A DNA stretch of 63,458 bases, counting the filler, from Nemertoderma westbladi (lineage: Eukaryota > Animalia > Xenacoelomorpha): NCBI GenBank assembly GCA_032718475.1. It is 4 parts of 4 records of this genome, joined end to end, with 100 filler letters (N's around TTAATTAATTAA, not from the genome) between each part and the next. Parts side by side here need not be neighbours in the genome. Positions count along the whole stretch, not along the records: positions 48,974 to 59,694 come from JAUCBJ010004901.1; 3 more parts are not named here. One strand, written 5' to 3'. This document shows, piece after piece, positions 48,974-62,190 of this stretch. The notes below the pieces were generated by a model. It was not told the DNA's origin. It did no database searches and saw nothing but the letters and a program-made list of their open reading frames with translations. Made by a program: the position numbers and the translations under genes. The stretch's first letter is position 1. Each line of letters begins with the position of its first letter.

Positions 48974-50037
48974 GAGGACCTTTTGGGTCAAACAATTGAG
49001 GAAGAAGGTAAAGCGGTAGTGGGGCAGTGCCAGACCTGCCGACGAGCGAAGAAGGAGCGAGCCATACAGGAGATGGCACCACTAACGGCGCGGCGAGTAG
49101 GGTAAGACAGCACGACCCGCCATTTACACATTGCGGTGTGGAAATGTTCGGGCCGATAAAGATCAAGGTGATGCGGCACACGGAGAAACGCTACGGTATT
49201 ATCTTCGTATGTAATAACACGCGGGCGGTAGGGATAGAACTCGCCCAAGATGCAACCGCATCGGCATTCATTAATGCCTTAGAGAGGTTTAGAGACCGCA
49301 AAGGTGGGACGATTGCAGTAATATACTCCGACAACGGAACCAACTTTGTGGGGGCGGAGAATGAGATGGCAGAGGCCTTGGATATCCTGGAAGGAGAGGA
49401 AGTCAGGGCAGCCATGAGGCGACGACAAGTAAAGTGGGAGAGGAGGACGCCGTATGCACCACATACCCTAGGATGCGTCGAGAGACTAGTGGGTAGTTCG
49501 AAGCGTCTGATGACGAAGTTGATGAACACCCATATGGTCCCGAAGGATGTGCTAAGGACAGTACTTGCGAAGTGTGAGGGTATCATTAATAGCAGACCGC
49601 TATATCCAGAGAATTGTGACCCTGAGTCACTAGACGTGCTGACGCCCAGCCATTTCCTAATGGAAAGACCAGCAACCATCGACATGCGGGGTGTAGACCC
49701 AGATGACATACACTCACGCCAGAGTTGGAAAGTCACTAAGGCGATAAGCGCAGAATATTGGAGAAGATGGGTTGAGGATTACCTACCCACGCTTCACAGA
49801 AGAAGTAAGTGGAGGAAGACGAACAGAGAGCTGAAAGTGGGTGATCTCGTGATGGTCACGGATGATACTATCATCAACAACCAGTGGCGGTTGGCGAGAG
49901 TTGTAGGCACTTACTCCGATGAGGACGGAAGAGTCCGATCGGTAGAAGTGCAGATAGGTGGCAAGATAGGTGCGAAAGACAGGAAAACCTACAGACGGGC
50001 TGTAGGAAAGTGTTATCTTCTAGAGGGAGCACCTTAG
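48974..50037 (+). pseudogene. BEL/Pao pol C-terminus: integrase plus DUF5641-like domain
   Basis: CQTC, EMAPL, PFTHCGVEMFGP (first catalytic D reads E), SDNGTNFVGA, ERLVGSSKR, INSRPL, LTPSHFL, WRRWVEDYL, WRLARV, DGRVRSV; frameshifts near the 5' end. Confidence 0.92.
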
Positions 50038-50179
50038 TGTAGAGTATGAAAGAAGTTTAATCGTCCAAATTTTGGACTGAGGGGGGTGGGATTGAGGGCG
50101 AGACGCCCTTCCCACACAAAAAATAAAATAAAAAATAATAAATATAAATGATAGATACGCAGTAAGTAGGCAGATAGAA

Positions 50180-50700
50180 GTTAGTTAGTTGAGTTAGATA
50201 GAGGATAGTAAGAGGGTACGTAGTACCATTAGTTAGTTGAGTTAGATAGAGGTTAGTAAGAGGGTACGTAGTACCATTAGTTAGTTAGTTAGTTGAGTTA
50301 GATAGAGGTTAGTAAGAGGGTACGTAGTACCGTTAGTTAGTTAGAGAGAGTAAGAGTTAGAGGGTACATAGTACCGTTAGTTAGAGAGAGTAAGAGTTAG
50401 AGGGTACGTAGTACCGTTAGTTAGTTAGAGAGAGTAAGAGTCAGAGGGCACGTAGTACTGTTAGTTAGTTAGAGAGAGTAAGAGTTAGAGGGTACGTAGT
50501 ACCGTTAGTTAGAGAGAGTAAGAGTTAGAGGGTACGTAGTACCGTTAGTTAGTTAGAGAGAGTAAGAGTCAGAGGGTACGTAGTACCGTTAGTTAGTTAG
50601 AGAGAGTAAGAGTTAGAGGGTACGTAGTACCATTAGTTAGAGAGAGTAAAAGTTAGAGGGTACGTAGTACCGTTAGTTAGTTAGGGAGAGTTAGAAGTTA
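50180..50700. repeat. 40-44-bp tandem repeat inside the LTR element, about 12 copies
   Basis: Unit (GTTA)2-3 GAGAGAGTAAGAGTTAGAGGGTACGTAGTACC. Confidence 0.92.
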
Positions 50701-51212
50701 GTAAGAAAGCAGTACTAGTTAGTAAGAGATACAGGTAGAGGGGTATATATAGTATAGATATTAGTCAGTAGTTAGTAGCGAGAGGGGGGCATATGAGTAT
50801 AGCTGGATAAATCGTGTAGGCCGCGCGATGCATACTGTTGTACTGCACAAGCCCACAGAGTAGGCCAGAATGTGGATTATGAAATAGAATGATCCATAGG
50901 CAATAGTAAGTAGTAGGACAGTAGAACTAAAATTAGATTGAAAATAAAATAAAAATAGGGCTGAAAAATTAACAAATTACGGTAACAGTAGAAAAGGAAA
51001 TTCTGGAACATAATTAAAGCAACGGACAAAAATTGTGATTTAGGCTACATTTAGTAGCTTCATAATTAAGTAGTGTAAAAAATAGGCAATAACTCAGAAA
51101 TTCAGAGAGAGATAGGCCATCGAACTGAAATAAACCATCTAAACCTATCACTCATCCTATAGCGCCTTGGTAAGGCACCACCCAAAGGGTGAGCGATCGG
51201 GCAAAGTTCGAG

Positions 51213-53775
51213 ATGGCAAGCAAACTCGTGCGAAAGAGAAAGGCGGAGCTAGGAGGAAAGGAGATACTGGTGGATTTCACCAAGAGGCATCCGGAAGAGA
51301 GGACGAGGGGATACTATGAGCGGTTAGAAAAGGGTCACGCAGCATGAGCGCTACAGGACCACTTCAGGGAGATGCATGAACAGCGGCTGGTCGGGACCTA
51401 CGGGACGCCGTCGCTGGACAACGCGATCTTTGAGCATTTCCACTACATGGTGAAAGGAGATGAGGCGAAGTTCGGGAGTCCGAAGTATGCGAGAGAGTCA
51501 CCGAGGAAAGATTGGAAGAGGTTCATAGAGTCCGTCAACAGGGGAGGATACATGATCCTAGACGACGAAGGGACCGTGGAAGACGAGGAGGGTTCAAGGA
51601 GAGGATCGGCGGGATTGGCCAGAACCATACTCCTACATTTGGCCGCGCCAAACGGGGACATTTTCCTATTTGACCTGGGAACGTATGGGAAGAAGGATGG
51701 GCCGAAGTTGGACCGGCTGCCGAGGGCGGTGCAGGTCCTGGTGAGAGAGAAGTCGACAACGAAAGTGGGATCGGCGATTCGCGACGACGCGGAGAGAATC
51801 ATCGGTCTGGACACCCCCAACCTCCTGGATATGCAGAAGGTCTTCATGGCTATGACAGCACCAGACGGGTTGGGACTAGTCGAGAACACAGGCCATTGCG
51901 GAGCGGTGGCGATGGGCCAGCTATTGGGGCTCGTATGTCACAAACCGATGGACTGGGGGAAGTTCAGGGAAGAGTACGGAGCAGAACTAGCGAACTCGCT
52001 GAAGTGGGGAGCGAGGCCGGGAAAACAGGAGGTGTATCAATTCCGAAGAGGAGCGATTAAGGTATATCAGAAGCGATATATCCTGCAGGAGGATTGGATA
52101 ATGATAAGTTTGCTTAACTTATTCATAACCATGGTTATCGAGAGGGAACCAGCTATTCTTATTATCGGGATCACCCCTAAGCTACAGAAGAGCCTTTAAG
52201 ATGGCTTTCGATGGTCTGGTAGACCACCCGGGGCTAAAGGGCGAGTCGGTGTACTACAACAGCCGACATCTGGTAGACTGGGAGATAGATACGCCGTATC
52301 AGAGATGGGAGCAGCTAGAGACGGATAGACGGGAGGCGAAGTGACTGGAAGAAGTTGCTAGACGGGAGAGGAGAGAAGCAGAGGAAAGGGAGGAGGAAGC
52401 TAGGGCGCAGAGCTACGGCTTCGAGGAACAGGCGGGCTTAGATGAACTTCGTTGGACTTCGTCAGTGAGTTCGGGGGAGTCTCTAGGGTGAGAACTGGGA
52501 TGGACGGTGGGATCGCCGAAACAGTCGACGTCGGGATTGCAAACGACGCCCATACCAGCGGGCGCCGAGGGGGACCAGCCGCTAAGGAAGCTAGGGGAGC
52601 TAGAGGGATGGAGAGCTACGGGCGAGAGCCAAGGCGGGAAGGGACATAGTGGGTCCATCGGGATACCGGGGTTGGAGCCACTGCCAGAGGAGGACGAAGA
52701 CGACGACGAGTTCGGAGAGATGCCGCCCATCGGGAGGATATGCCACTCGGACACGGACTGGGTTGGCGAGAGGGTGGTGACGGCCAGTGGGGCGAGGGCC
52801 TTCTGGGATAGACCCGGCAAGCGGGCCTGGGTGCACGAGGAGCCGGCGATGGATTTCGCGGGGAGCACTATCAGGTTGGGCGAACAACCGGGGACAGCAC
52901 CACGGGTAATATTCGGGGAGACGATGCACGAGAGGGGCGAGGAAATCGACGTAGACAGGGACACTAACGTCCGGAAGTTCGCTTACCAGCGACTCCACAG
53001 ACCGCGGAGATCGCTTGGGACGAAGGACGACGTGGGGAGGGAGACATTGGTACTTGGTTGCGACTACTGTGGGAGACAGACCCACCAGGAAAGGAGCTGT
53101 TTGTACCGGTTCCAGAAAGGGACTTATTGTCTCTATTACCGCGAGTCGAGCCACAGGATAGGGGCGTGTCCACGGTTGCATAACCGATGTTCGAAATGTA
53201 ACTTTCGGGGACATTACGGACGCCAGTGCGACTGGATGGACGACGAAGAGAAGTTTAGGGTCTTCGAAGAATGGGCCGACGTTGGGGCGATGACTCAGCA
53301 ACGTATGAAGGCCCAGGAGTTTCGGTGGGGCTTCTTTAACATCAATCAGGAGGCTCACATGGAGATTATCAAACGGAGGCTTCCGTTTACCTACCAGGAA
53401 GTGGCGACGGCGGCATCATATGCCGGGGTGATAAATACGCAGAGGTATTTGGACAGGTGGACGCCACAGAGTAGAGGAGAGTTTAGGGATTTCTTGGCAG
53501 AGCATGTGCCGCGGGCAATGAAGATGATCTTATGGGACGCCATCAGGGGGAGACAACAGGGCCACTCGGAAGGGCCACCCGCAAAGCGATACCGGGAGCT
53601 AATAACACCGGCACCCAAGGAGTCGACGACCGGGATCAGTAAGGAGGTGGCGGCGAGAGTCCGAAGGCAGAAAGCAGATCCCAGGGGAGCGGTAGTAACC
53701 AGGAAACAACCCAGGGAGGAGGACGGCAAAGGGAAAGACTGGAGGTGGTTCCCAAAGGCTGGTGGAACGAACTAA
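51213..53775 (+). pseudogene. Retrotransposon accessory gene: WRN/EXD-like DEDDy 3'-5' exonuclease plus three CCHC zinc knuckles
   Basis: ATG at 51213; TGA stops at 51345, 52342 and 52489 and one frameshift before about 52200 join the track ORFs 51372-52199 and 52507-53775; motifs ILDDEG, LLHLAAPNGDIFLFDL, LPRAVQVLVREKSTTKVGSAIRDD, QKRYILQED; knuckles at 53059-53229. Confidence 0.78.
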
Positions 53776-54289
53776 GACTTTGTGTAACATGCCTGGAAGG
53801 CACCACGCGAGACTCTTAAATACAAATTCAAATAATGTGAATAATCGAATAAGTGCAATTTGTATGTACGTACGTAATAATCAGTAATCTAGTGATAAAA
53901 ATATATTCGAAGTAAGTACTATAGTCATATAACCTTTCTCAATTAGCTACTGGGACTGGGGACCAATGGACTATGATACTACCACGGACGAGACATCGGA
54001 CGACATCATGCTTCTTGAGTGCGACGGCACAAAAGGGAGGGGTGAAACTCGTCGGGAGTGAGTGGTCAGAATAGGGGTTGAGTTGTAGTATGAAGAGAGT
54101 GCGGGGTATAGAGAGAGTGCGAGCGCAATTCAAGTGTGGGGGGGGGGGGAGAAGTAAGAGGCAGATTAAGGGACGAGGAAGTTCGAGAGAGTGTAAGAGT
54201 TGGGGTGAGAGTAGAGTAGAGTTGGAGTAGCGAAAGTGATTGGGGAAACAAAAGTCGTGTGGGAGGAGCGCACGATCGGCCCGACACGG

Positions 54290-54453
54290 GACGCCAGGCA
54301 AACGGGTAGCATTATCATACCCATAGGGAGCGGCCTGGAAAGCCGGCTCCGAAAGAAAAAATAGTTCCACCCCACACCCGACACTAGGTCGGGATCCAGC
54401 GGAATTGTAGCGCACTAGAGGTAGATGCTATCTTCTCACCGGGAAGATAGCAT
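54290..54453 (+). ncRNA. Putative structured cis-acting RNA element upstream of the PPT
   Basis: Series of hairpins conserved in the diverged copy at about 59371-59560 (-), with compensatory substitutions. Confidence 0.55.
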
Positions 54454-54463
54454 GGGGGGGGAG
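54454..54463 (+). promoter_or_regulatory. Polypurine tract
   Basis: GGGGGGGGAG directly before the TGT LTR start; GGAGGGAG at the same place in element 2. Confidence 0.8.
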
Positions 54464-55035
54464 TGTTAGCTTATCCAATTCCGCTAACCTACCCCATAAA
54501 GTGAGCCGTTAAGCAATATTGGGAACACGAGGTTTATTACCAATATCAACCTCGTGTCACCCCAACAAAGTGGGAATGGAGAAAACACACACACACACGC
54601 ACAATAAGTGTCAGGGGTTACACCCCTGAAAGAGGGAGAATAGCAGGGGCGAAGGGAAGCACTTCAGGGGAGGCAAAGGGTGACAACAGAGTTATTAGCC
54701 AATGGGGGGAAGGCACCGGCTGGGTAACGTAACTTGGCCAACCGTGCGATATATATTATCAGTACAGTAATCATTTCATTCACTTATAGTAAGTCAGCTT
54801 AGCTAGGGTAGTACCGGAACTTCAATTACCGTCTTACCGTCTTCGTATACCATCCGTGTATCCAATATCATATCTTATACCTTGTGTCATTATTTATGTA
54901 TCTTATACTATATCTATACTATTATACCCGGAAGACTATATACAGCGATCAATAACTCTCTTTATCTTTCACACACGGCGGGGACGCGTAGATTGAAAAC
55001 CGGATAAACCGGGATCCTTCATAGATCCCGTCACA
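54464..55035 (+). repeat. 3' LTR (572 bp)
   Basis: TGT...ACA ends; follows the PPT; terminal GATCCCGTCACA is identical to the end of LTR 2. Confidence 0.8.
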
Positions 55036-55169
55036 ATAAACTTTAAGCAAGGTGTTATCGGCAAACATCCTGCTATCTGTAAAGCAGAATATACACTGAA
55101 CAAAGAAATGTCGCAATGCAGCTTAAAACTTGCTTAGTATCGAATGAAAATAATTCTTAAAACGGAGGG

Positions 55170-55397
55170 TGGGGGGAAACTGGACGCAATAAAAATTCAT
55201 CCCTCTCCAGGGGAAAATTAGACGCAAATATCAGTTGATTACTCTCAAAAATAAAACTGTAATCTGTTCTATTGTATTTAGTTTATTGTTTTGGGTAAAA
55301 TAACGTGCCACTGTAACCTGCTCCTTTCCCTAAATTGAGAATTTAACATTGAGGCGGGATATTAATTCGCTAAGACGGTATTTGCGTCCAGTTCCCC
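55170..55397. mobile_element. Small dispersed MITE-like repeat
   Basis: Imperfect inverted ends GGGGAA(A)CTGGACGCAA; a diverged copy lies in the host gene intron at about 28050-28250. Confidence 0.55.
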
Positions 55398-56121
55398 GCC
55401 CCCCCCCCCCCCCCCCCCTGTCTCCCATTACGTACCTTCCCTCTCTCGGCGTAGCCAATTCGTTACATCGCTACTCATACTTAACATACTGAACTGGAAG
55501 ATACTGTAGGACAACGAATGTTCTCTTTGTTCTGAATGTCTCATTCTCTTTGATTGAGCAGCTGCTACTGTACAGTACTGTGCATACAGCAGTTAACTAT
55601 TAATTGTTGGAACTCCCTTGTTGCCTGTTGGTTTAAAGTAATTTTTACTAACAATGACCGTTTAGAAACCCTTACATGTAACTTCATTGAAAGAATAAAC
55701 TTATAACTTCAAAAGACAATTGGTTGCTTTTAATTGCAACATCTAAAGAATTGAGTTTGTTTGAAGATCAAAAAAAAATTTATTTAACAGCATTCTAGAC
55801 AGCAACGCAATTGGGGCTAATACAGAGCAAAGTAACAATGAATAGACAATGCAGAACAGCAATAATCAAGACTTAAGGCACTACCTGTTTAACTGTATAT
55901 GATGTATACTGTAGAAGTTATCAATCGACTAGGTTGCGGTTGGTGAGGTATGGAAAACAGGAGTGCTGAACATACCATTATTGGATGTTTGTAACCGGAA
56001 GCAACCAAAAGAGGGAAACTCATCAATTTGTACTAAAAATCAAATAAAGCCTCAAGTCAACAAGTCAAGTCAAATGAGCGCATATATTTTTTCCACCACT
56101 GCTTAGCAAAACAATATTAAC

Positions 56122-58265
56122 GCATAGCATTATAGCACATTACATTAATAACTGTATACCATAGCATCATAGCACGTTACAATAATATCTGTATAGCATA
56201 GCATTATAGCACGTTACATTAATAACTGTATGTATAGCATAGCATCATAGCATGTTACAATAATAACTGTATAGCATAGCATTATAGCACGTTACATTAA
56301 TAACTGTATAGCATAGCATCATAGCACGTTACATTAATAATTGTATAGCATAGCATTATAGCACGTTACATTAATAACTGTATGTATAGCATAGCATCAT
56401 AGCATGTTACAATAATAACTGTATACTGTAGCATAGCATTATAGCACGTTACAATAATAACTGTATACTGTAGCATAGCATAATAGCACGTTACATTAAT
56501 AACTGTATAGCATAGCATTATAGCACGTTACAATAATAACTGTATATCATAGCATCATAGCACGTTACAATAATAACAAACTGTATACTGTAGCATAGCA
56601 TTATATCATGTTACAATAATAAATGTATACTGTAGCATAGCATAATAGCACGTTACATTAATAACTGTATAGCATAGCATTATAGCACGTTACATTATTA
56701 ACTGTATAGCATAGTATTATAGCACGTTACAATAATAACTGTATAGCATAGCATTATAGCACGTTACAATAATAACTGTATACTGTAGCATAGCATTATA
56801 GCACGTTACATTAATAACTGTATAGCATAGCATTATAGCACGTTACAATAATAACTGTATACTGTAGCATAGCATAATAGCACGTTACATTTATAACTGT
56901 ATAGCATAGCATTATAGCACGTTACAATAATAACTGTATATCATAGCATCATAGCACGTTACAATAATAACAAACTGTATACTGTAGCATAGCATTATAG
57001 CACGTTACAATAATAAATGTATACTGTAGCATAGCATAATAGCACGTTACATTAATAACTGTATAGCATAGCATTATAGCACGTTACATTATTAACTGTA
57101 TAGCATAGTATTATAGCACGTTACAATAATAACTGTATAGCATAGCATTATAGCACGTTACAATAATAACTGTATACTGCAGCATAGCATTATAGCACGT
57201 TACATTAACTGTATAGCATAGCATTATAGCACGTTACAATAATAACTGTATACTGTAGCATAGCATAATAGCACGTTACATTAATAACTGTATAGCATAG
57301 CATTATAGCACGTTACAATAATAACTGTATATCATAGCATCATAGCACGTTACAATAATAACTGTATACTGTAGCATAGCATTATAGCACGTTGCAATAA
57401 TAAATGTATACTGTAGCATAGCATAATAGCACGTTACATTAATAACTGTATAGCAAAGCATTATAGCACGTTACATTATTAACTGTATAGCATAGTATTA
57501 TAGCACGTTACAATAATAACTGTATACTGTAGCATAGCATTATAGCACGTTACAATAATAACTGTATTGTGTAGCATCATAGCATGTTACAATAATAACT
57601 ATATAGCATAGCATTATAGCACGTTACAATAATAACTGTATAGCATAGCATTATAGCACGTTACAATAATAACTGTATACTGTAGCATAGCATTATAGCA
57701 CGTTACAATAATAACTGTATACTGTAGCATAGCATAATAGCACGTTACATTAATAACTGTATAGCATAGCATTATAGCACGTTACAATAATAACTGTATA
57801 TCATAGCATCATAGCACGTTACAATAATAACTGTATACTGTAGCATAGTATTATAGCACGTTACAATAATAAATGTATACTGTAGCATAGCATAATAGCA
57901 CGTTACATTAATAACTGTATAGCATAGCATTATAGCACGTTACATTATTAACTGTATAGCATAGTATTATAGCACGTTACAATAATAACTGTATACTGTA
58001 GCATAGTATTATAGCACGTTACATTAATAACTGTATAGCATAGTATTATAGCACGTTACAATAATAACTGTATAGCATAGCATTATAGCACGTTACATTA
58101 ATAACTGTATACTGTAGCATAGCATTATAGCACGTTACAATAATAAATGTATACTGTAGCATAGCATAATAGCACGTTACATTAATAACTGTATAGCATA
58201 GCATTATAGCACGTTACAATAATAACTGTATACTGTAGCATAGCATTATAGCACGTTACATTAAT
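56122..58265. repeat. 37/42-bp satellite, about 55 copies, with higher-order structure
   Basis: Unit GCATAGCATTATAGCACGTTACA(A/T)TAATAACTGTATA, with a variant carrying an extra CTGTA. Confidence 0.95.
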
Positions 58266-58729
58266 ACATCTGAACATCCACAAAGAACTTAGTTGTACCA
58301 ATAAACTACAGTATAGTGGAGTCAGTCTCCTTATGGTTGAAGCCAAATTACAATAGTACAATACTAATAATAGTACTGTAGTACTCTAGTAACCCGTTTA
58401 GTGACCCGTATACACCAATCAATTCGATTCGATATAGAATTATACCTCGAATATAGAGAAACTACTGAGTAAGGGAGCGATTTTGCCGTTCTGACCTTCG
58501 TGAAGTTTAAGAATGCATTCTACTCCAATGTTGTTAAATTTGCCAAACGAGATAACATCAGATCTAAATAAGCTAGTGCGGCGTATAACCCAAACATAGG
58601 GAGCATGAAATATATCGGCTTACTAGAATTAGGCTGGTTATGTATCATTCGATTGATTGATTTTTGCTATATAATTCCTAACAATTATGTTCACTTACAG
58701 GGAGACAGGGGGGGGGGGGGGGGGGGGGG

Positions 58730-59694
58730 TGTGACGGGATCAAGGAGTTGGCAGTATAGATCCCGACCGGTGTGTTATACGCGTCGCCGCTTCCGTGGGC
58801 TGCTGAGCTGTCTACTGGATATGTGTGGTAGGCTGAAGGCCGTTCCAAATAACTGAGTTTAGTTGTCAGTGTTAATAATCACAGTAAACGATAATAGCAC
58901 AGTCTGAATATAATAGCATGCAATACAACGGTTAGTAACGACGGTCAAAACTGTTCCGGTCTCACAACTGTAAGGAACCAACTGAACTAGTAATCAATAA
59001 CCACAACGGTTATAATATCATTGACACATATTAAATTGCCTCTGCGCTACTGAGTGGCCTGAATATCCAATAGATGCGCTCTAATCACCCCCAATGTGCT
59101 TTCCCGGACACCATTGGCTTAGCCTGATTAATTGTCACCTCGCCACTCCCTGTTGCCATTATCCCTCGTGCTAGCCTTACTAGCTTGTTTGTCCCTCTGA
59201 GGTGGTTTGACCTCTCAACTCTCTCTGTGGCTTATGGCGTGTATCGCCTTAGTTGGTTGTGAGGTGACATTATAATTTGTAATGTCACCTCGCCAACTAT
59301 AATTGGTAAAATGCCACTAATACCATTTTCGGTGGGTAGTGCAGGGAATTGAATCCGCTTACACTCCCTCCATGCTATCTTCCCGGTGAGAAGATAGCCT
59401 CAACCTTGAGTGCGCTTCAATTCCGCTGGAATCCAATCTAATATTGGATGTGGGGTGGAAATTTCTTCTCGGGGTTGGCTTTCCAGGCCGGCCCCCATGA
59501 GTCTGTTATCATTATACCCATCCTTGGTACATCTGCGAGCTATGCTGTACCAAGGCATCTGGCGTCTCTGTTTTAGATGATCACCCTCACTCCTCACACA
59601 GTTTTCCTCTCGGACTTTGTTGTCCCTTCCTCTCTCGCCAGTCCATTGGGACTCATCCCCCTCTATGCTCGCTCCCCATACTTGAATCTCACTT
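58730..59694 (-). mobile_element. Second, related LTR retrotransposon 3' end (3' UTR, PPT, LTR 58730-59363)
   Basis: Minus strand reads ...GAAGATAGCATGGAGGGAG TGTAAGC...GATCCCGTCACA; 3' UTR homologous to about 54120-54463; the rest is lost in the gap. Confidence 0.82.
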
Positions 59695-59794
59695 NNNNNN
59701 NNNNNNNNNNNNNNNNNNNNNNNNNNNNNNNNNNNNNNTTAATTAATTAANNNNNNNNNNNNNNNNNNNNNNNNNNNNNNNNNNNNNNNNNNNN
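59695..59794. other. Assembly gap with artificial linker
   Basis: 44 N + TTAATTAATTAA + 44 N. Confidence 0.97.
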
Positions 59795-60066: not shown

Positions 60067-61335
60067 TTACAAGTCCCTCGAAATATCATAATATTCCTGG
60101 TCTGCTCCATCGTTAGATTGATCCAGGTTGGCTGTGGTGCGGTAGGTGGCGTCCGGGAGGTCTGTACCGCGGGTGGCGCTGTCCGGGTTCGCTGTGGCAT
60201 GGTGGGTGGCGTCCGGGAAGTCCGCACCCCGTGTGGCGCAGTCCGGGTTCGCTGTGGTGTGATGGGTGGCGTCCGGGAGATCCGTACCACGGGAGGCGTG
60301 GTCCGGGTTCGCTGTGGTGCGGTGGGTGGCGTCCGAGAGGTCCGTACCATGGGTAGCGCGATCCGGGTTCGCCGTCATGCAGTGGGTGGCGTCCTGGAGG
60401 TCCGCACCACTTGTGGCGCGGTCCGGGCTCGCTGTGGTGTGGTGGGTAGCATCCAGGAGGTCTGTACCGCGGGTGACGCAATCAGGGTTCGCTGTGGCGC
60501 AGTGGGTAGCGTCCGGGAGGTCTGCACTGCGGGTGGCGCGGTCCGAGTTCACTGTGGCGTGATGGGTCGCGTCCGGGAGGTCCGCACCGCGGGTGGCGCG
60601 GTCTGCGTTCGCTGTGGCGCAGTGGGTGGCATCCGGGAGTTCAGCACCACGGGTGGTGCAGTCCGGGTTCGCTGTGGCACGGTGGGTGGTGTCCGGGTAG
60701 TCCGCACCGCGGGTGGCGCGGTTGGTGGCGTCAGGGATTTCCACACCGCGGGTGGCGCAGTCTGGGTTCGCTGTGGCGCGGTGGGTGGTGTCCGGGAGGT
60801 CCGCATTGTCAGTGGCGCGGTCCAGGTTCACTGTGGTGCGGCGCTTGGCCCCACTGGTGTTAGCGCTATCTGAGGTGGAGAGCAGTTTGGAGAAATGAGT
60901 TCTCCATCGTTCTAGGGATATTGGGCAACTAGATTGGTGCGCTGAACTGGTTTGTGTCCACTTGTAAGGGTGTTCCTCTGCGTCCCGTATGACCCGTTCC
61001 TCTTGTTTTGATCTGTAAGCTTCCAGTTTATCAGTTAGGAGTTTCTTGTATTCTCCTTTAGTTGTATGTAACACATGTCGTAACTGGGGATCCAGTTTAG
61101 AAGCGTGAGCAAAATATATTACTTTCTTCCGTTGGTTGAAGCAGTCCTTGTCGAACCAGGGTCGTGCTTTCCTATTAAAGTACGGTTTGTCGATTGCGGC
61201 GTCCTGGATCATGTCAGAGATAGTCGTGTATGCTGAGTCCACATCGTTGGCAGCGAGGTACGTTTCTGTTACTTGGATTCGCGGGTCGATTTTCAGTTGC
61301 TCGAGATTTAGCTTGCGTGTCTTTGTGGAGTGCAT
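60067..61335 (-). CDS. LINE ORF2 linker region fused in frame to a 20-aa repeat (no endonuclease, no RT)
   Basis: ARPWFDKDC...YKKLL...WRTHFSKLL is the typical segment between APE and RT; it is followed by (TANPDRATRGADLPDATHRT)n. Confidence 0.5.
   Translation of the reverse strand: MHSTKTRKLNLEQLKIDPRIQVTETYLAANDVDSAYTTISDMIQDAAIDKPYFNRKARPWFDKDCFNQRKKVIYFAHASKLDPQLRHVLHTTKGEYKKLLTDKLEAYRSKQEERVIRDAEEHPYKWTQTSSAHQSSCPISLERWRTHFSKLLSTSDSANTSGAKRRTTVNLDRATDNADLPDTTHRATANPDCATRGVEIPDATNRATRGADYPDTTHRATANPDCTTRGAELPDATHCATANADRATRGADLPDATHHATVNSDRATRSADLPDATHCATANPDCVTRGTDLLDATHHTTASPDRATSGADLQDATHCMTANPDRATHGTDLSDATHRTTANPDHASRGTDLPDATHHTTANPDCATRGADFPDATHHATANPDSATRGTDLPDATYRTTANLDQSNDGADQEYYDISRDL
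60120..60845. repeat. GC-rich 60-bp tandem repeat, about 12 copies
   Basis: Unit GTCCGGGTTCGCTGTGGYGCGGTGGGTGGCGTCCGGGAGGTCCGCACCGCGGGTGGCGCG; variants are mostly CpG transitions. Confidence 0.93.
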
Positions 61336-61449
61336 TGTGGTGTATTTTCTAGAGGTTCGGTTTCAGATACATGTGGTAGCATCTATTCCATTGTCGCCCC
61401 TGGACGATGGTTGATAGTAGTGGTGGCGGGGTTTCAAGTTAAGCACCGA

Positions 61450-62190
61450 TCATTCCGAGTCAGACAGTCTGTAGTTGCATATGACAACTCCTTCTTCCCA
61501 GTTGTCGGGATCCATTAAGCGTAGGTGGTCTTCATGGCTGCAAATTAGATGGAATGATTGCGTACTACTGATGAGCTGGTCGGGGTTTGTGTGCAGTGAC
61601 GCCGGTATAGAAATGATATCGTTGAACAGTAGGGATTCACGTTGCAGATAAGCCTTGATATCATCCGCTGCGACAGTTTCCGCAAAGCAACCAATATAAA
61701 TATGGGCGACCTGAGGTTGCGGGGATACCACCGGAGCTGGTGAGACTCCCAGACCGCTGCCGGATCTCCTGCCTACAACGTTTGGTCGCGGGCGGAGGAG
61801 GCGGGATCTATATGGTGCCGGGTCTGTCTCTACCGACTGACCAGTGGCCATTGTTTTAGACGGTACAACAGTAGTGGTCGTTTTTGGCGGGATCGTAGCA
61901 CTAGAATAGTCATTGTTGTGGAGTGGGAGTTGAGTTAGGCGGGTGGCCATTGATGGGAAGCTTGTCTGACGCTTTAATAGTTGATTGTGCGCCTCAATCA
62001 TCTCGCGTTGTGACTCCGACAATCTGCCGAGTGCAACAGAGTATAGAGAAACCATTTTCAGCAAGTTATCGGTTATGAGGCGTTCCTGGTCGTTGTTTAG
62101 GTTCTTCTTTTGTTTGACAGACCGCAAGACGTTAATTATTTCATCATTTAAATTGGTGAAGGCTTCTGCCATAATTATGTATTGATACAA
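61450..62190 (-). CDS. LINE ORF1-like protein (coiled coil plus RRM-like C-terminus)
   Basis: Intact 246-aa frame; HIYIGCFAETVAADDIKAYL...SFHL...LMDPDNWEEGVVI matches the CR1/L2/RTE-X ORF1 pattern; lies just upstream of the ORF2 remnant. Confidence 0.68.
   Translation of the reverse strand: MYQYIIMAEAFTNLNDEIINVLRSVKQKKNLNNDQERLITDNLLKMVSLYSVALGRLSESQREMIEAHNQLLKRQTSFPSMATRLTQLPLHNNDYSSATIPPKTTTTVVPSKTMATGQSVETDPAPYRSRLLRPRPNVVGRRSGSGLGVSPAPVVSPQPQVAHIYIGCFAETVAADDIKAYLQRESLLFNDIISIPASLHTNPDQLISSTQSFHLICSHEDHLRLMDPDNWEEGVVICNYRLSDSE

What the first reader, a model, noticed from the sequence alone, without database searches (positions are those of the whole stretch)
54290..54453. Covarying, possibly pseudoknotted RNA module just upstream of the PPT in two diverged LTR elements
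Seen: this segment and about 59371-59560 (-) are far more alike than the adjacent LTR bodies. Hairpin CCCGAC-ACTAG-GTCGGG (54377-54393) becomes TCCAAT-ATTAG-ATTGGA in copy 2, which is three compensatory pair changes. Both copies keep the GGC-CTGGAAA-GCC hairpin, whose loop CTGGA (54335-54339) is complementary to a conserved TCCAG (54395-54399), and a TTCC...GGAA enclosing stem. Both also have an identical GCTATCTTCTCACCGGGAAGATAGC hairpin touching the PPT. Inference: a selected cis-acting structure (packaging/export signal, nuclease-resistant RNA, ribozyme or plus-strand priming aid), perhaps the partner of the accessory exonuclease-knuckle protein. One stem pairs better on the antisense strand, so the functional strand is not settled.
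Basis: partly seen in the sequence, partly recalled or inferred. Interest (0 to 1): 0.75.

Follow-up and report, generated by a model that had tools for sequence, protein, structure and literature searches.

The report
Folded RNA element ending BEL/Pao retrotransposons
Two otherwise diverged jumping genes share a 170-base non-coding stretch just before their final repeat, with stems that keep their pairing through sequence changes; it is likely a folded RNA platform for starting DNA copying, and possibly a docking site for a host tRNA.

Summary
The core (54324-54453) is 81.5% identical between two BEL/Pao elements, against 50% upstream and 54% in the LTR bodies (shuffled 46%). Four of 44 modelled pairs change on both sides. 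In public runs of this organism the module is abundant: loops and linkers vary, most stem variants keep pairing as G·U on the sense strand, and indels exclude coding.

Corrections: homology starts near 54313 and runs about 20 nt into the LTR. The TTCC/GGAA stem is not supported; GGAATTG more likely pairs across the PPT with the LTR start. The kissing pairs are invariant, so the pseudoknot shows no covariation.

There is no Rfam match, and the whole module is absent from 80 related loci. One clade of relatives with the same EXD2-like exonuclease/knuckle ORF carries, at the same distance from the LTR, a sense copy of the 3' end of its primer tRNA-Lys. The module's invariant CCACCCCACA is the best match to that motif, but weakly (10 and 105 of 500 shuffles).

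Best reading (0.4): a 3' reverse-transcription platform that works like the 3' half of Ty3's split primer site. An export or packaging element is the main rival.

The parts
49012..50037 (+). BEL/Pao integrase with C-terminal DUF5641 (end of pol of element 1; its 5' part is cut by the contig start)
   Evidence: Pfam DUF5641 E 2e-23, rve E 2e-4; 995 homologues, best 41%
51348..52199 (+). Piece of the accessory ORF: EXD2-like DEDDy 3'-5' exonuclease domain, first D-x-E motif present; the ORF is broken in this copy
   Evidence: Family profile hits EXD2 (6k17) at E 3e-12; D27 invariant, E29 and D203 nearly invariant in 25 rows; no Pfam hit on its own
52492..53775 (+). Piece of the accessory ORF: triple zinc-knuckle domain
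   Evidence: 87 relatives; conserved Cys/His columns
54304..54322 (+). H1, small hairpin with a variable loop
   Evidence: MFE; loop variants at 54310-54313
54327..54350 (+). H2, two-part hairpin with the invariant loop CTGGAAA
   Evidence: One compensatory pair; G·U-type variants at 22% and 35%
54365..54376 (+). C-rich site; CCACCCCACA (54367-54376) shows no variant row; candidate tRNA-like or anti-PPT site; TTCCA is also a second possible partner of the H2 loop
   Evidence: 0 of 10 positions variable; best PWM site; 54336-54340/54365-54369 pairing
54377..54393 (+). H3, covarying 6-bp hairpin with a hypervariable loop
   Evidence: 3 of 6 pairs compensatory; 54382 and 54388 both changed in about 99% of depth; pair probability 0.97-1.0
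54395..54399 (+). TCCAG, predicted partner of the H2 loop (pseudoknot)
   Evidence: 5 of 5 Watson-Crick, invariant; no covariation
54401..54416 (+). Two strands predicted to pair across the PPT: 54401-54407 with LTR 54476-54482, and 54412-54416 with 54462-54466
   Evidence: RNAalifold; probability 0.90/0.84 in copy 2 but 0.09/0.09 in copy 1; invariant, no covariation
54425..54453 (+). H4, 11-13 bp hairpin touching the PPT; the most deeply covered part
   Evidence: Pair probability 0.88-0.97; depth peak
54454..54463 (+). Polypurine tract; the G run varies in length among copies
   Evidence: Sequence; indel rows
54464..55035 (+). 3' LTR of element 1 (TGT...ACA)
   Evidence: Shares a 12-nt end with element 2's LTR
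59338..59517 (-). Second copy of the module with PPT and LTR start (element 2, cut by the contig end at 59694)
59522..59555 (-). H0, 10-bp hairpin upstream of the core, absent from copy 1
   Evidence: MFE; a contig in 4 runs has a perfect 11-bp stem here with two double-sided changes, compared by eye (table 5c)
58730..59363 (-). 3' LTR of element 2

Best explanation
This is a conserved non-coding structured element at the 3' end of BEL/Pao retrotransposons that likely folds in the genomic (sense) RNA and likely serves reverse transcription, by holding the PPT and LTR start in a defined fold and possibly docking the primer tRNA through an invariant C-rich site. SHOWN: position, conservation island, compensatory changes in H3 and H2, variable loops, an invariant C-rich site, and a tRNA-Lys 3'-end copy at the same place in one clade of relatives. 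PREDICTED: helices across the PPT; the loop-loop pseudoknot. INFERRED: that the C-rich site is a worn form of that tRNA copy; and that, once copied into minus-strand DNA, it would anneal to primer-tRNA positions 60-66, just beyond an 11-nt primer site, and so help end plus-strand strong-stop synthesis or free the primer. It would work like the 3' half of Ty3's bipartite primer site, but with the opposite polarity.
For: Island of 81.5% between flanks of 50% and 54%. 96.6% of 88 cells paired with 4 double-sided changes, against 28-49% paired and no double-sided change for slid controls. Variable at 5% or more: 7 of 64 paired, 9 of 41 other unpaired, 0 of 10 C-rich positions. Indels of 1, 2 and 4 nt exclude a reading frame. 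The fold includes the PPT and U3 start. Relatives: at least 12 of 15 letters of the tRNA-Lys1,2 3' end in the sense 3' UTR of 16 of 66 loci, against 3 antisense and 1 of 63 coding controls; at 13 or more, 11 against 0 and 0. These sites lie 59-119 nt before the LTR in most loci (182 in one), and the window's lie 94 and 91 nt before it. Seven of 80 loci show an 11-12 nt tRNA-Lys-type primer site. Positions 60-65 are invariant in 14 of 14 distinct sites, with G>A 8/70 and C>T 0/84 against a control of 0.152 and 0.154, as expected if the minus strand pairs with the tRNA. Short-PBS elements Ty1 and Ty3 need extra tRNA contacts (PMC4974528, PMC5371799, passages).
Against: The window family's own primer site is not in the window, so its tRNA is unknown. 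The PWM match is weak: 10 of 500 shuffles for copy 1, 105 of 500 for copy 2, and 7 of 126,220 window positions score as high. The window's integrase does not fall in the clade that has the tRNA copy. The tRNA-copy sites are essentially one clade, so the Fisher p of 0.0014 counts kin, not events. The helix from UTR to LTR is not general among relatives (8.6 against 8.5 bp) and is weak in copy 1 (0.09). Only two full copies were aligned; the shuffle control was reached by 28 of 500. Variant tables give no linkage. Three minor variants (1.5-2.6%) and one at 18% break sense pairs. Unchecked earlier notes report self-priming in many BEL/Pao families, which would remove the need for a tRNA site.
Confidence: 0.4

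Rival explanations
1. An RNA export, packaging or dimerisation element like the MusD MTE: a sense-strand multi-hairpin with a kissing contact that binds host export factors, Gag or the knuckle protein.
For: Sense-strand G·U bias and invariant loop sequences. [quoted passage not shown] The position just before the PPT is that of CTE-type elements (recalled).
Against: No Rfam match. The predicted fold includes the PPT and U3 start. It does not explain the tRNA copy at this place in relatives. Function not tested.
Confidence: 0.27
2. An anti-PPT switch: the C-rich site pairs in cis with the PPT G run and shields it until minus-strand synthesis; no tRNA is involved.
For: In 3 of 4 loci of one clade the PPT pairs with a site at -80 to -85 better than shuffles (p 0, 0.04, 0.02; 0.12 for the fourth), and RNAalifold predicts it. 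The window site can pair with the G run (probability 0.27 in copy 1).
Against: Over 35 sequences the median p is 0.395; the window copies give 0.46 and 0.89; probability 0.01 in copy 2. C>T changes would be tolerated as G·U but none is listed.
Confidence: 0.13
3. A new self-cleaving ribozyme or exonuclease-blocking RNA that sets or protects an RNA end near the PPT.
For: Compact fold with one or two possible pseudoknots and invariant single-stranded letters. A pistol-like order (loop pseudoknot, A-rich linker, GCG after the partner strand) was noticed by eye; the pistol layout is recalled. Earlier notes list many hammerhead repeats in this genome (unchecked).
Against: No Rfam family at E <= 10 except three chance hits. 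No hammerhead, HDV-L3 or twister core string on either strand of either copy; AAATA only in copy 1. The closing helices of a pistol cannot be drawn. Cleavage here would cut the genome from its 3' LTR.
Confidence: 0.08
4. No selection on structure: the two elements share the stretch through recent recombination or conversion at the PPT boundary.
For: LTR swaps near the PPT are plausible (own knowledge). Most pairs (35 of 44) are simply invariant.
Against: Similarity ends sharply on both sides. Within it, linkers vary up to 30-80% while neighbouring motifs do not, and stem changes keep pairing.
Confidence: 0.05

Closest known systems
Ty3 bipartite primer binding site (3' segments in the 3' UTR/U3 bind the T-psi-C and D arms of tRNAiMet); PMC4974528 and PMC5371799, passages
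   Same: LTR retrotransposon with a short 5' primer site and a proposed second tRNA contact near the 3' end
   Different: Ty3's segments pair with the tRNA at RNA level. Here the site lies upstream of the PPT, in relatives it is a sense copy of the tRNA 3' end whose substitutions fit minus-strand pairing, and it sits within a hairpin array. The window's primer is unknown.
MusD transport element (MTE); PMC5767303, passages (the primary paper was not held)
   Same: Structured cis element of an LTR retrotransposon with a kissing contact and pseudoknot
   Different: No sequence or Rfam similarity found; export untested; this fold is predicted to include the PPT and U3 start
DEDDy-type ORF3 of bdelloid Juno and Vesta LTR retrotransposons; PMC5408684, passages
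   Same: Extra ORF after pol coding a DEDDy 3'-5' exonuclease, proposed there to process element RNA ends
   Different: Here the host element is BEL/Pao, the domain is EXD2-like and fused to a triple knuckle, and one clade has lost the D-x-E motif; the passages read describe no RNA element
HIV-1 primer activation signal and tRNA-like U3 motif (recalled; search found no paper)
   Same: Genome sequences outside the PBS that engage the primer tRNA
   Different: Different location and polarity; not tested here

Membership tests
BEL/Pao LTR retrotransposon (host element) | Integrase with C-terminal DUF5641 at the end of pol | tested here: met
BEL/Pao LTR retrotransposon (host element) | PPT followed by a TG...CA LTR | tested here: met
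BEL/Pao LTR retrotransposon (host element) | Gag, RT, paired LTRs, primer site and target duplication | not testable with these tools
   Both elements are cut by contig ends; no genome held
Selected structured RNA element | Conservation above the flanks | tested here: met
Selected structured RNA element | Compensatory or wobble-preserving changes in stems | tested here: met
   H3 and H2; two full copies only, no R-scape test
Pseudoknotted RNA | Covariation or probing support for the loop-strand pairs | tested here: inconclusive
   5 of 5 pairs invariant; a second partner exists at 54365-54369
Ty3-type bipartite primer site | Short 5' primer site for a known tRNA in the same family | not testable with these tools
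   5' end missing; relatives show 11-12 nt tRNA-Lys sites in 7 of 80 loci
Ty3-type bipartite primer site | 3' segment that matches the primer tRNA | tested here: inconclusive
   Clear in one clade of relatives, weak in the window
Ty3-type bipartite primer site | Required for initiation or strand transfer | not testable with these tools
   Needs bench work
CTE/MTE-type export element | Match to a curated family | tested here: not met
   Rfam
CTE/MTE-type export element | Promotes export of unspliced RNA | not testable with these tools
   Needs a reporter assay
Known small ribozymes (hammerhead, HDV-like, twister, pistol) | Covariance-model match or catalytic-core strings | tested here: not met
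   (core strings recalled)
Known small ribozymes (hammerhead, HDV-like, twister, pistol) | Self-cleavage | not testable with these tools
   Needs an in vitro assay
xrRNA | Match to a curated family | tested here: not met
Protein-coding constraint | Open frame kept among copies | tested here: not met
   1-, 2- and 4-nt indels; no shared ORF
DEDDy exonuclease (accessory ORF) | Profile match and acidic motifs | tested here: met
   activity untested

The most novel reading that the evidence does not exclude
BEL/Pao elements with an EXD2-like exonuclease/knuckle ORF encode a second, inverted primer site 60-120 nt before the 3' LTR. Once copied into minus-strand DNA it captures tRNA-Lys, either to stop plus-strand strong-stop synthesis exactly at the 11-nt primer boundary or to prime plus strand after the exonuclease trims the unmatched tRNA end. 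The window's module is a pseudoknotted descendant of that site, with the tRNA copy split by an inserted hairpin.
Probability: 0.17. Interest if true: 0.82.

Novelty: new variant of a known kind. Interest (0 to 1): 0.55.

Why it matters
My searches found no description of cis-acting RNA structures or auxiliary tRNA contacts in BEL/Pao elements, a major animal retrotransposon group. This 170-nt module is small, abundant and naturally variable, so it can be probed directly. If the tRNA reading is right, it would show how elements with an 11-nt primer site end plus-strand strong-stop DNA, and it would give a testable job to the exonuclease ORF, whose catalytic activity had not been shown in such elements according to PMC5408684.

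Tried and rejected
Rfam on 53700-59700: three chance hits at E 3.9-8.2; on 10 related loci: two chance miRNA hits. Exact module patterns: 0 in viral contigs, 0 in metagenomes, and 1 in GTDB, a chance match in an unrelated context. Covariance model R1 over the window and 80 loci: only the two copies and their antisense echoes. ARAGORN: no tRNA in the window or in 121 viral loci. No RNA holder was listed among sequencing runs, which says nothing on expression. A resemblance of H3 plus CGGAA to the top half of tRNA-Val (by eye against PMC7555719) was considered; a primer-site search of the window gave 1 match against 0.79 expected, so it stays a coincidence candidate. HDV-like reading of the relatives' CCCACGT: the flanking three-pair stem is not kept (by eye). 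A cis-folded tRNA T arm in the relatives: only 1 of 27 listed sites has 5 of 5 T-stem pairs. The TTCC/GGAA enclosing stem was rejected. A general UTR-LTR helix and general anti-PPT pairing were not found. Two primary papers were not held. No supplements were read.

Full report
SETTING. The window is a string of contigs joined by N spacers. Contig 48974-59694 holds the 3' ends of two LTR elements tail to tail. Element 1 (+) has a BEL/Pao integrase (DUF5641 E 2e-23; best homologue 41%), a broken accessory ORF, about 690 nt of UTR, a PPT at 54454-54463 and an LTR at 54464-55035. Element 2 (-) is cut by the contig end; its LTR is 59363-58730. The two LTRs share a 12-nt end. The accessory ORF has a triple knuckle and an exonuclease domain whose 25-row profile hits EXD2 at E 3e-12. 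No genome is held.

OBSERVATION. All named strings are present. The copies align at 80% over 170 nt (E 3e-37). Identity is 106/130 in 54324-54453, 71/142 upstream, 27/69 in 54290-54323, 18/26 in the LTR start, and 54% in the LTR body against 46 +/- 1.5% shuffled. So the island is about 54313-54482. Both strands fold better than shuffles (z -2.5 to -3.5).

STRUCTURE. RNAalifold on the two copies predicts H2, H3 and H4, plus two helices across the PPT (54401-07 with 54476-82; 54412-16 with 54462-66). It does not predict TTCC/GGAA. With the kissing helix added, 96.6% of 88 cells pair and 4 of 44 pairs change on both sides. Slid controls pair 28-49% with no double change; 28 of 500 shuffles reach the observed value, which two rows cannot improve much. 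Single-copy pair probabilities are about 1 for H3, about 0.9 for H4, 0.9 (copy 2) against 0.09 (copy 1) for the helix into the LTR, and 0.01 or less for TTCC/GGAA. The H2 loop has two possible partners: TCCAG (invariant) and TTCCA at 54365-69. By my own knowledge of pseudoknot geometry the nearer one, after an A-rich linker, looks more classical, but its T's vary in about 17-23% of depth. The pseudoknot is therefore predicted, not shown.

OTHER COPIES IN THE ORGANISM. Contigs of four runs (at most three samples) were laid on each copy: 1514 and 780 records in run X1. Summed depth in X1 is under 1,000 at 54170-54233, 27,000-52,000 at 54250-54313, 68,000-252,000 over H2-H3, about 500,000 over H4, and 43,000-107,000 in the LTR at 54490-54569. 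This is no copy number and stretch ends lose cover, but it fits a module shared by families with different flanks. Positions 54382 and 54388 are both changed in about 99% of depth, so copy 1's C-G is a double change. I tabulated 38 of the 40 listed rows (two rows under 1% in X1 dropped; one row was not shown). At 5% or more, 7 of 64 paired, 9 of 41 other unpaired and 0 of 10 C-rich positions vary. Five of the seven give G·U on the sense strand, one is probably half of a compensatory pair, and one leaves a sense mismatch in 18% that would be G·U on the antisense strand. Three minor variants (1.5-2.6%) also break sense pairs. Linkage cannot be read from the tables, and hid 61 rows. Indels of 1, 2 and 4 nt exclude coding. 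One contig has a perfect 11-bp stem at the place of copy 2's H0, with two double-sided changes (by eye, table 5c). Conclusion: selected structure, more likely on the sense strand.

RELATIVES. Exact module patterns found nothing usable. The covariance model finds no module in the 80. A stem touching the PPT is common (mean 6.8 against 5.4 bp in 34 sequences including the two window copies; LTR starts chosen by eye). It changes on both sides within one clade (2 pairs). A UTR-LTR helix is not general (8.6 against 8.5). CCCCACG is enriched in the UTRs (19 of 70 loci against 3.1 shuffled). It is part of a copy of the 3' end of tRNA-Lys1,2; the reference was taken from 17 viral loci and identified by PMC8775094 (passage) and PMC7555719 (table passage). 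At least 12 of 15 letters match in 16 of 66 sense UTRs, against 3 antisense and 1 of 63 coding controls. Seven of 80 loci show an 11-12 nt primer site of the same tRNA. In 14 distinct sites, positions 60-65 never vary; G>A occurs 8/70 and C>T 0/84, with equal control rates. That fits the minus strand pairing with the tRNA. However, the nine such rows that have an integrase lie in one 12-row clade, so this is one origin.

LINK TO THE WINDOW. A matrix from 17 such sites picks 54364 as the best site in copy 1's UTR (10 of 500 shuffles) and the homologous 59461 in copy 2 (105 of 500); 7 of 126,220 window positions score as high. The distance to the LTR, 94 and 91 nt, is within the relatives' usual 59-119. 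By eye, H3's 3' arm resembles the next tRNA letters, as if a hairpin had been inserted. Against this, the window's integrase sits outside that clade on a long, unresolved branch, and its primer is unknown. The alternative that the site pairs with the PPT holds in one other clade, but not generally and not clearly here.

MECHANISM. I commit at 0.4 to a reverse-transcription platform: a sense-RNA fold around the PPT and LTR start, with a C-rich site that probably engages the primer tRNA. It works like the 3' half of Ty3's bipartite primer site (PMC4974528, PMC5371799, passages), but membership is untested and the polarity differs. An MTE-like export or packaging element (PMC5767303, passages) gets 0.27, an anti-PPT switch 0.13, a ribozyme or xrRNA 0.08, and neutral exchange 0.05. 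Earlier unchecked notes describe tRNA copies in place of the PPT in plant Gypsy families, and self-priming in many BEL/Pao families. These are leads for and against, not evidence.

LITERATURE. Searches showed no description of this module or of a tRNA copy before the PPT in BEL/Pao. I saw passages only of PMC5408684, PMC4974528, PMC5371799, PMC5767303, PMC8775094, PMC7555719 and PMC13524379; all others as search listings. No supplements were read, and subscription journals and Repbase reports are not covered. CTE position, HIV tRNA-contact motifs and ribozyme cores are recalled.

VERDICT. A real, selected, lineage-specific structured element; a new variant of a known kind; interest 0.55.

Noticed in passing
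L009, L029, L036, L039-L042, L056, L062, L066-L072 (3' UTRs): One well-supported clade of BEL/Pao elements carries a sense copy of the 3' end of tRNA-Lys1,2 before the PPT, and some members also carry its first 6-7 letters a little upstream. This is clearer than in the window and deserves its own study.
   Followed up: partly
L008, L015, L030, L048, L052, L059, L076, L080: A second group keeps a T-arm-like GGGT(T)C..CCC string instead. Where the exonuclease was readable these keep the D-x-E motif, whereas the clade with the tRNA 3'-end copy has lost it. This is one or two events, so no co-evolution is shown.
   Followed up: partly
L012, L046, L079, L081: A C-rich anti-PPT site at -80 to -85 and a covarying hairpin at the very start of the LTR.
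   Followed up: partly
L003-L082: An EXD2-like exonuclease plus triple-knuckle third ORF is widespread in BEL/Pao elements: 45 of 51 long ORFs have the domain. No paper was found.
   Followed up: partly
window 50078-50092: A G-rich tract right after the integrase stop, where a PPT would sit in an element without a third ORF; possibly a vestigial or central PPT.
   Followed up: no
window 50179-50742: Tandem 40-56 nt repeats between integrase and the accessory ORF.
   Followed up: no
window 51345-51347 and about 52090-52500: The accessory ORF of element 1 is broken by a stop and by frame breaks.
   Followed up: no
window 54465-54488: The LTR start of copy 1 can form its own hairpin whose loop holds the strand that pairs upstream, a possible second pseudoknot; weak in copy 2.
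   Followed up: partly
window 56100-58300: A 37/42-nt satellite lies between the two tail-to-tail elements.
   Followed up: no
window 23258, 48874, 59695: The window is several contigs joined by N spacers, so adjacency across these points is artificial.
   Followed up: yes
window 60067-62190 (-): Non-LTR-like ORFs with a 20-residue tandem repeat in the next contig.
   Followed up: no
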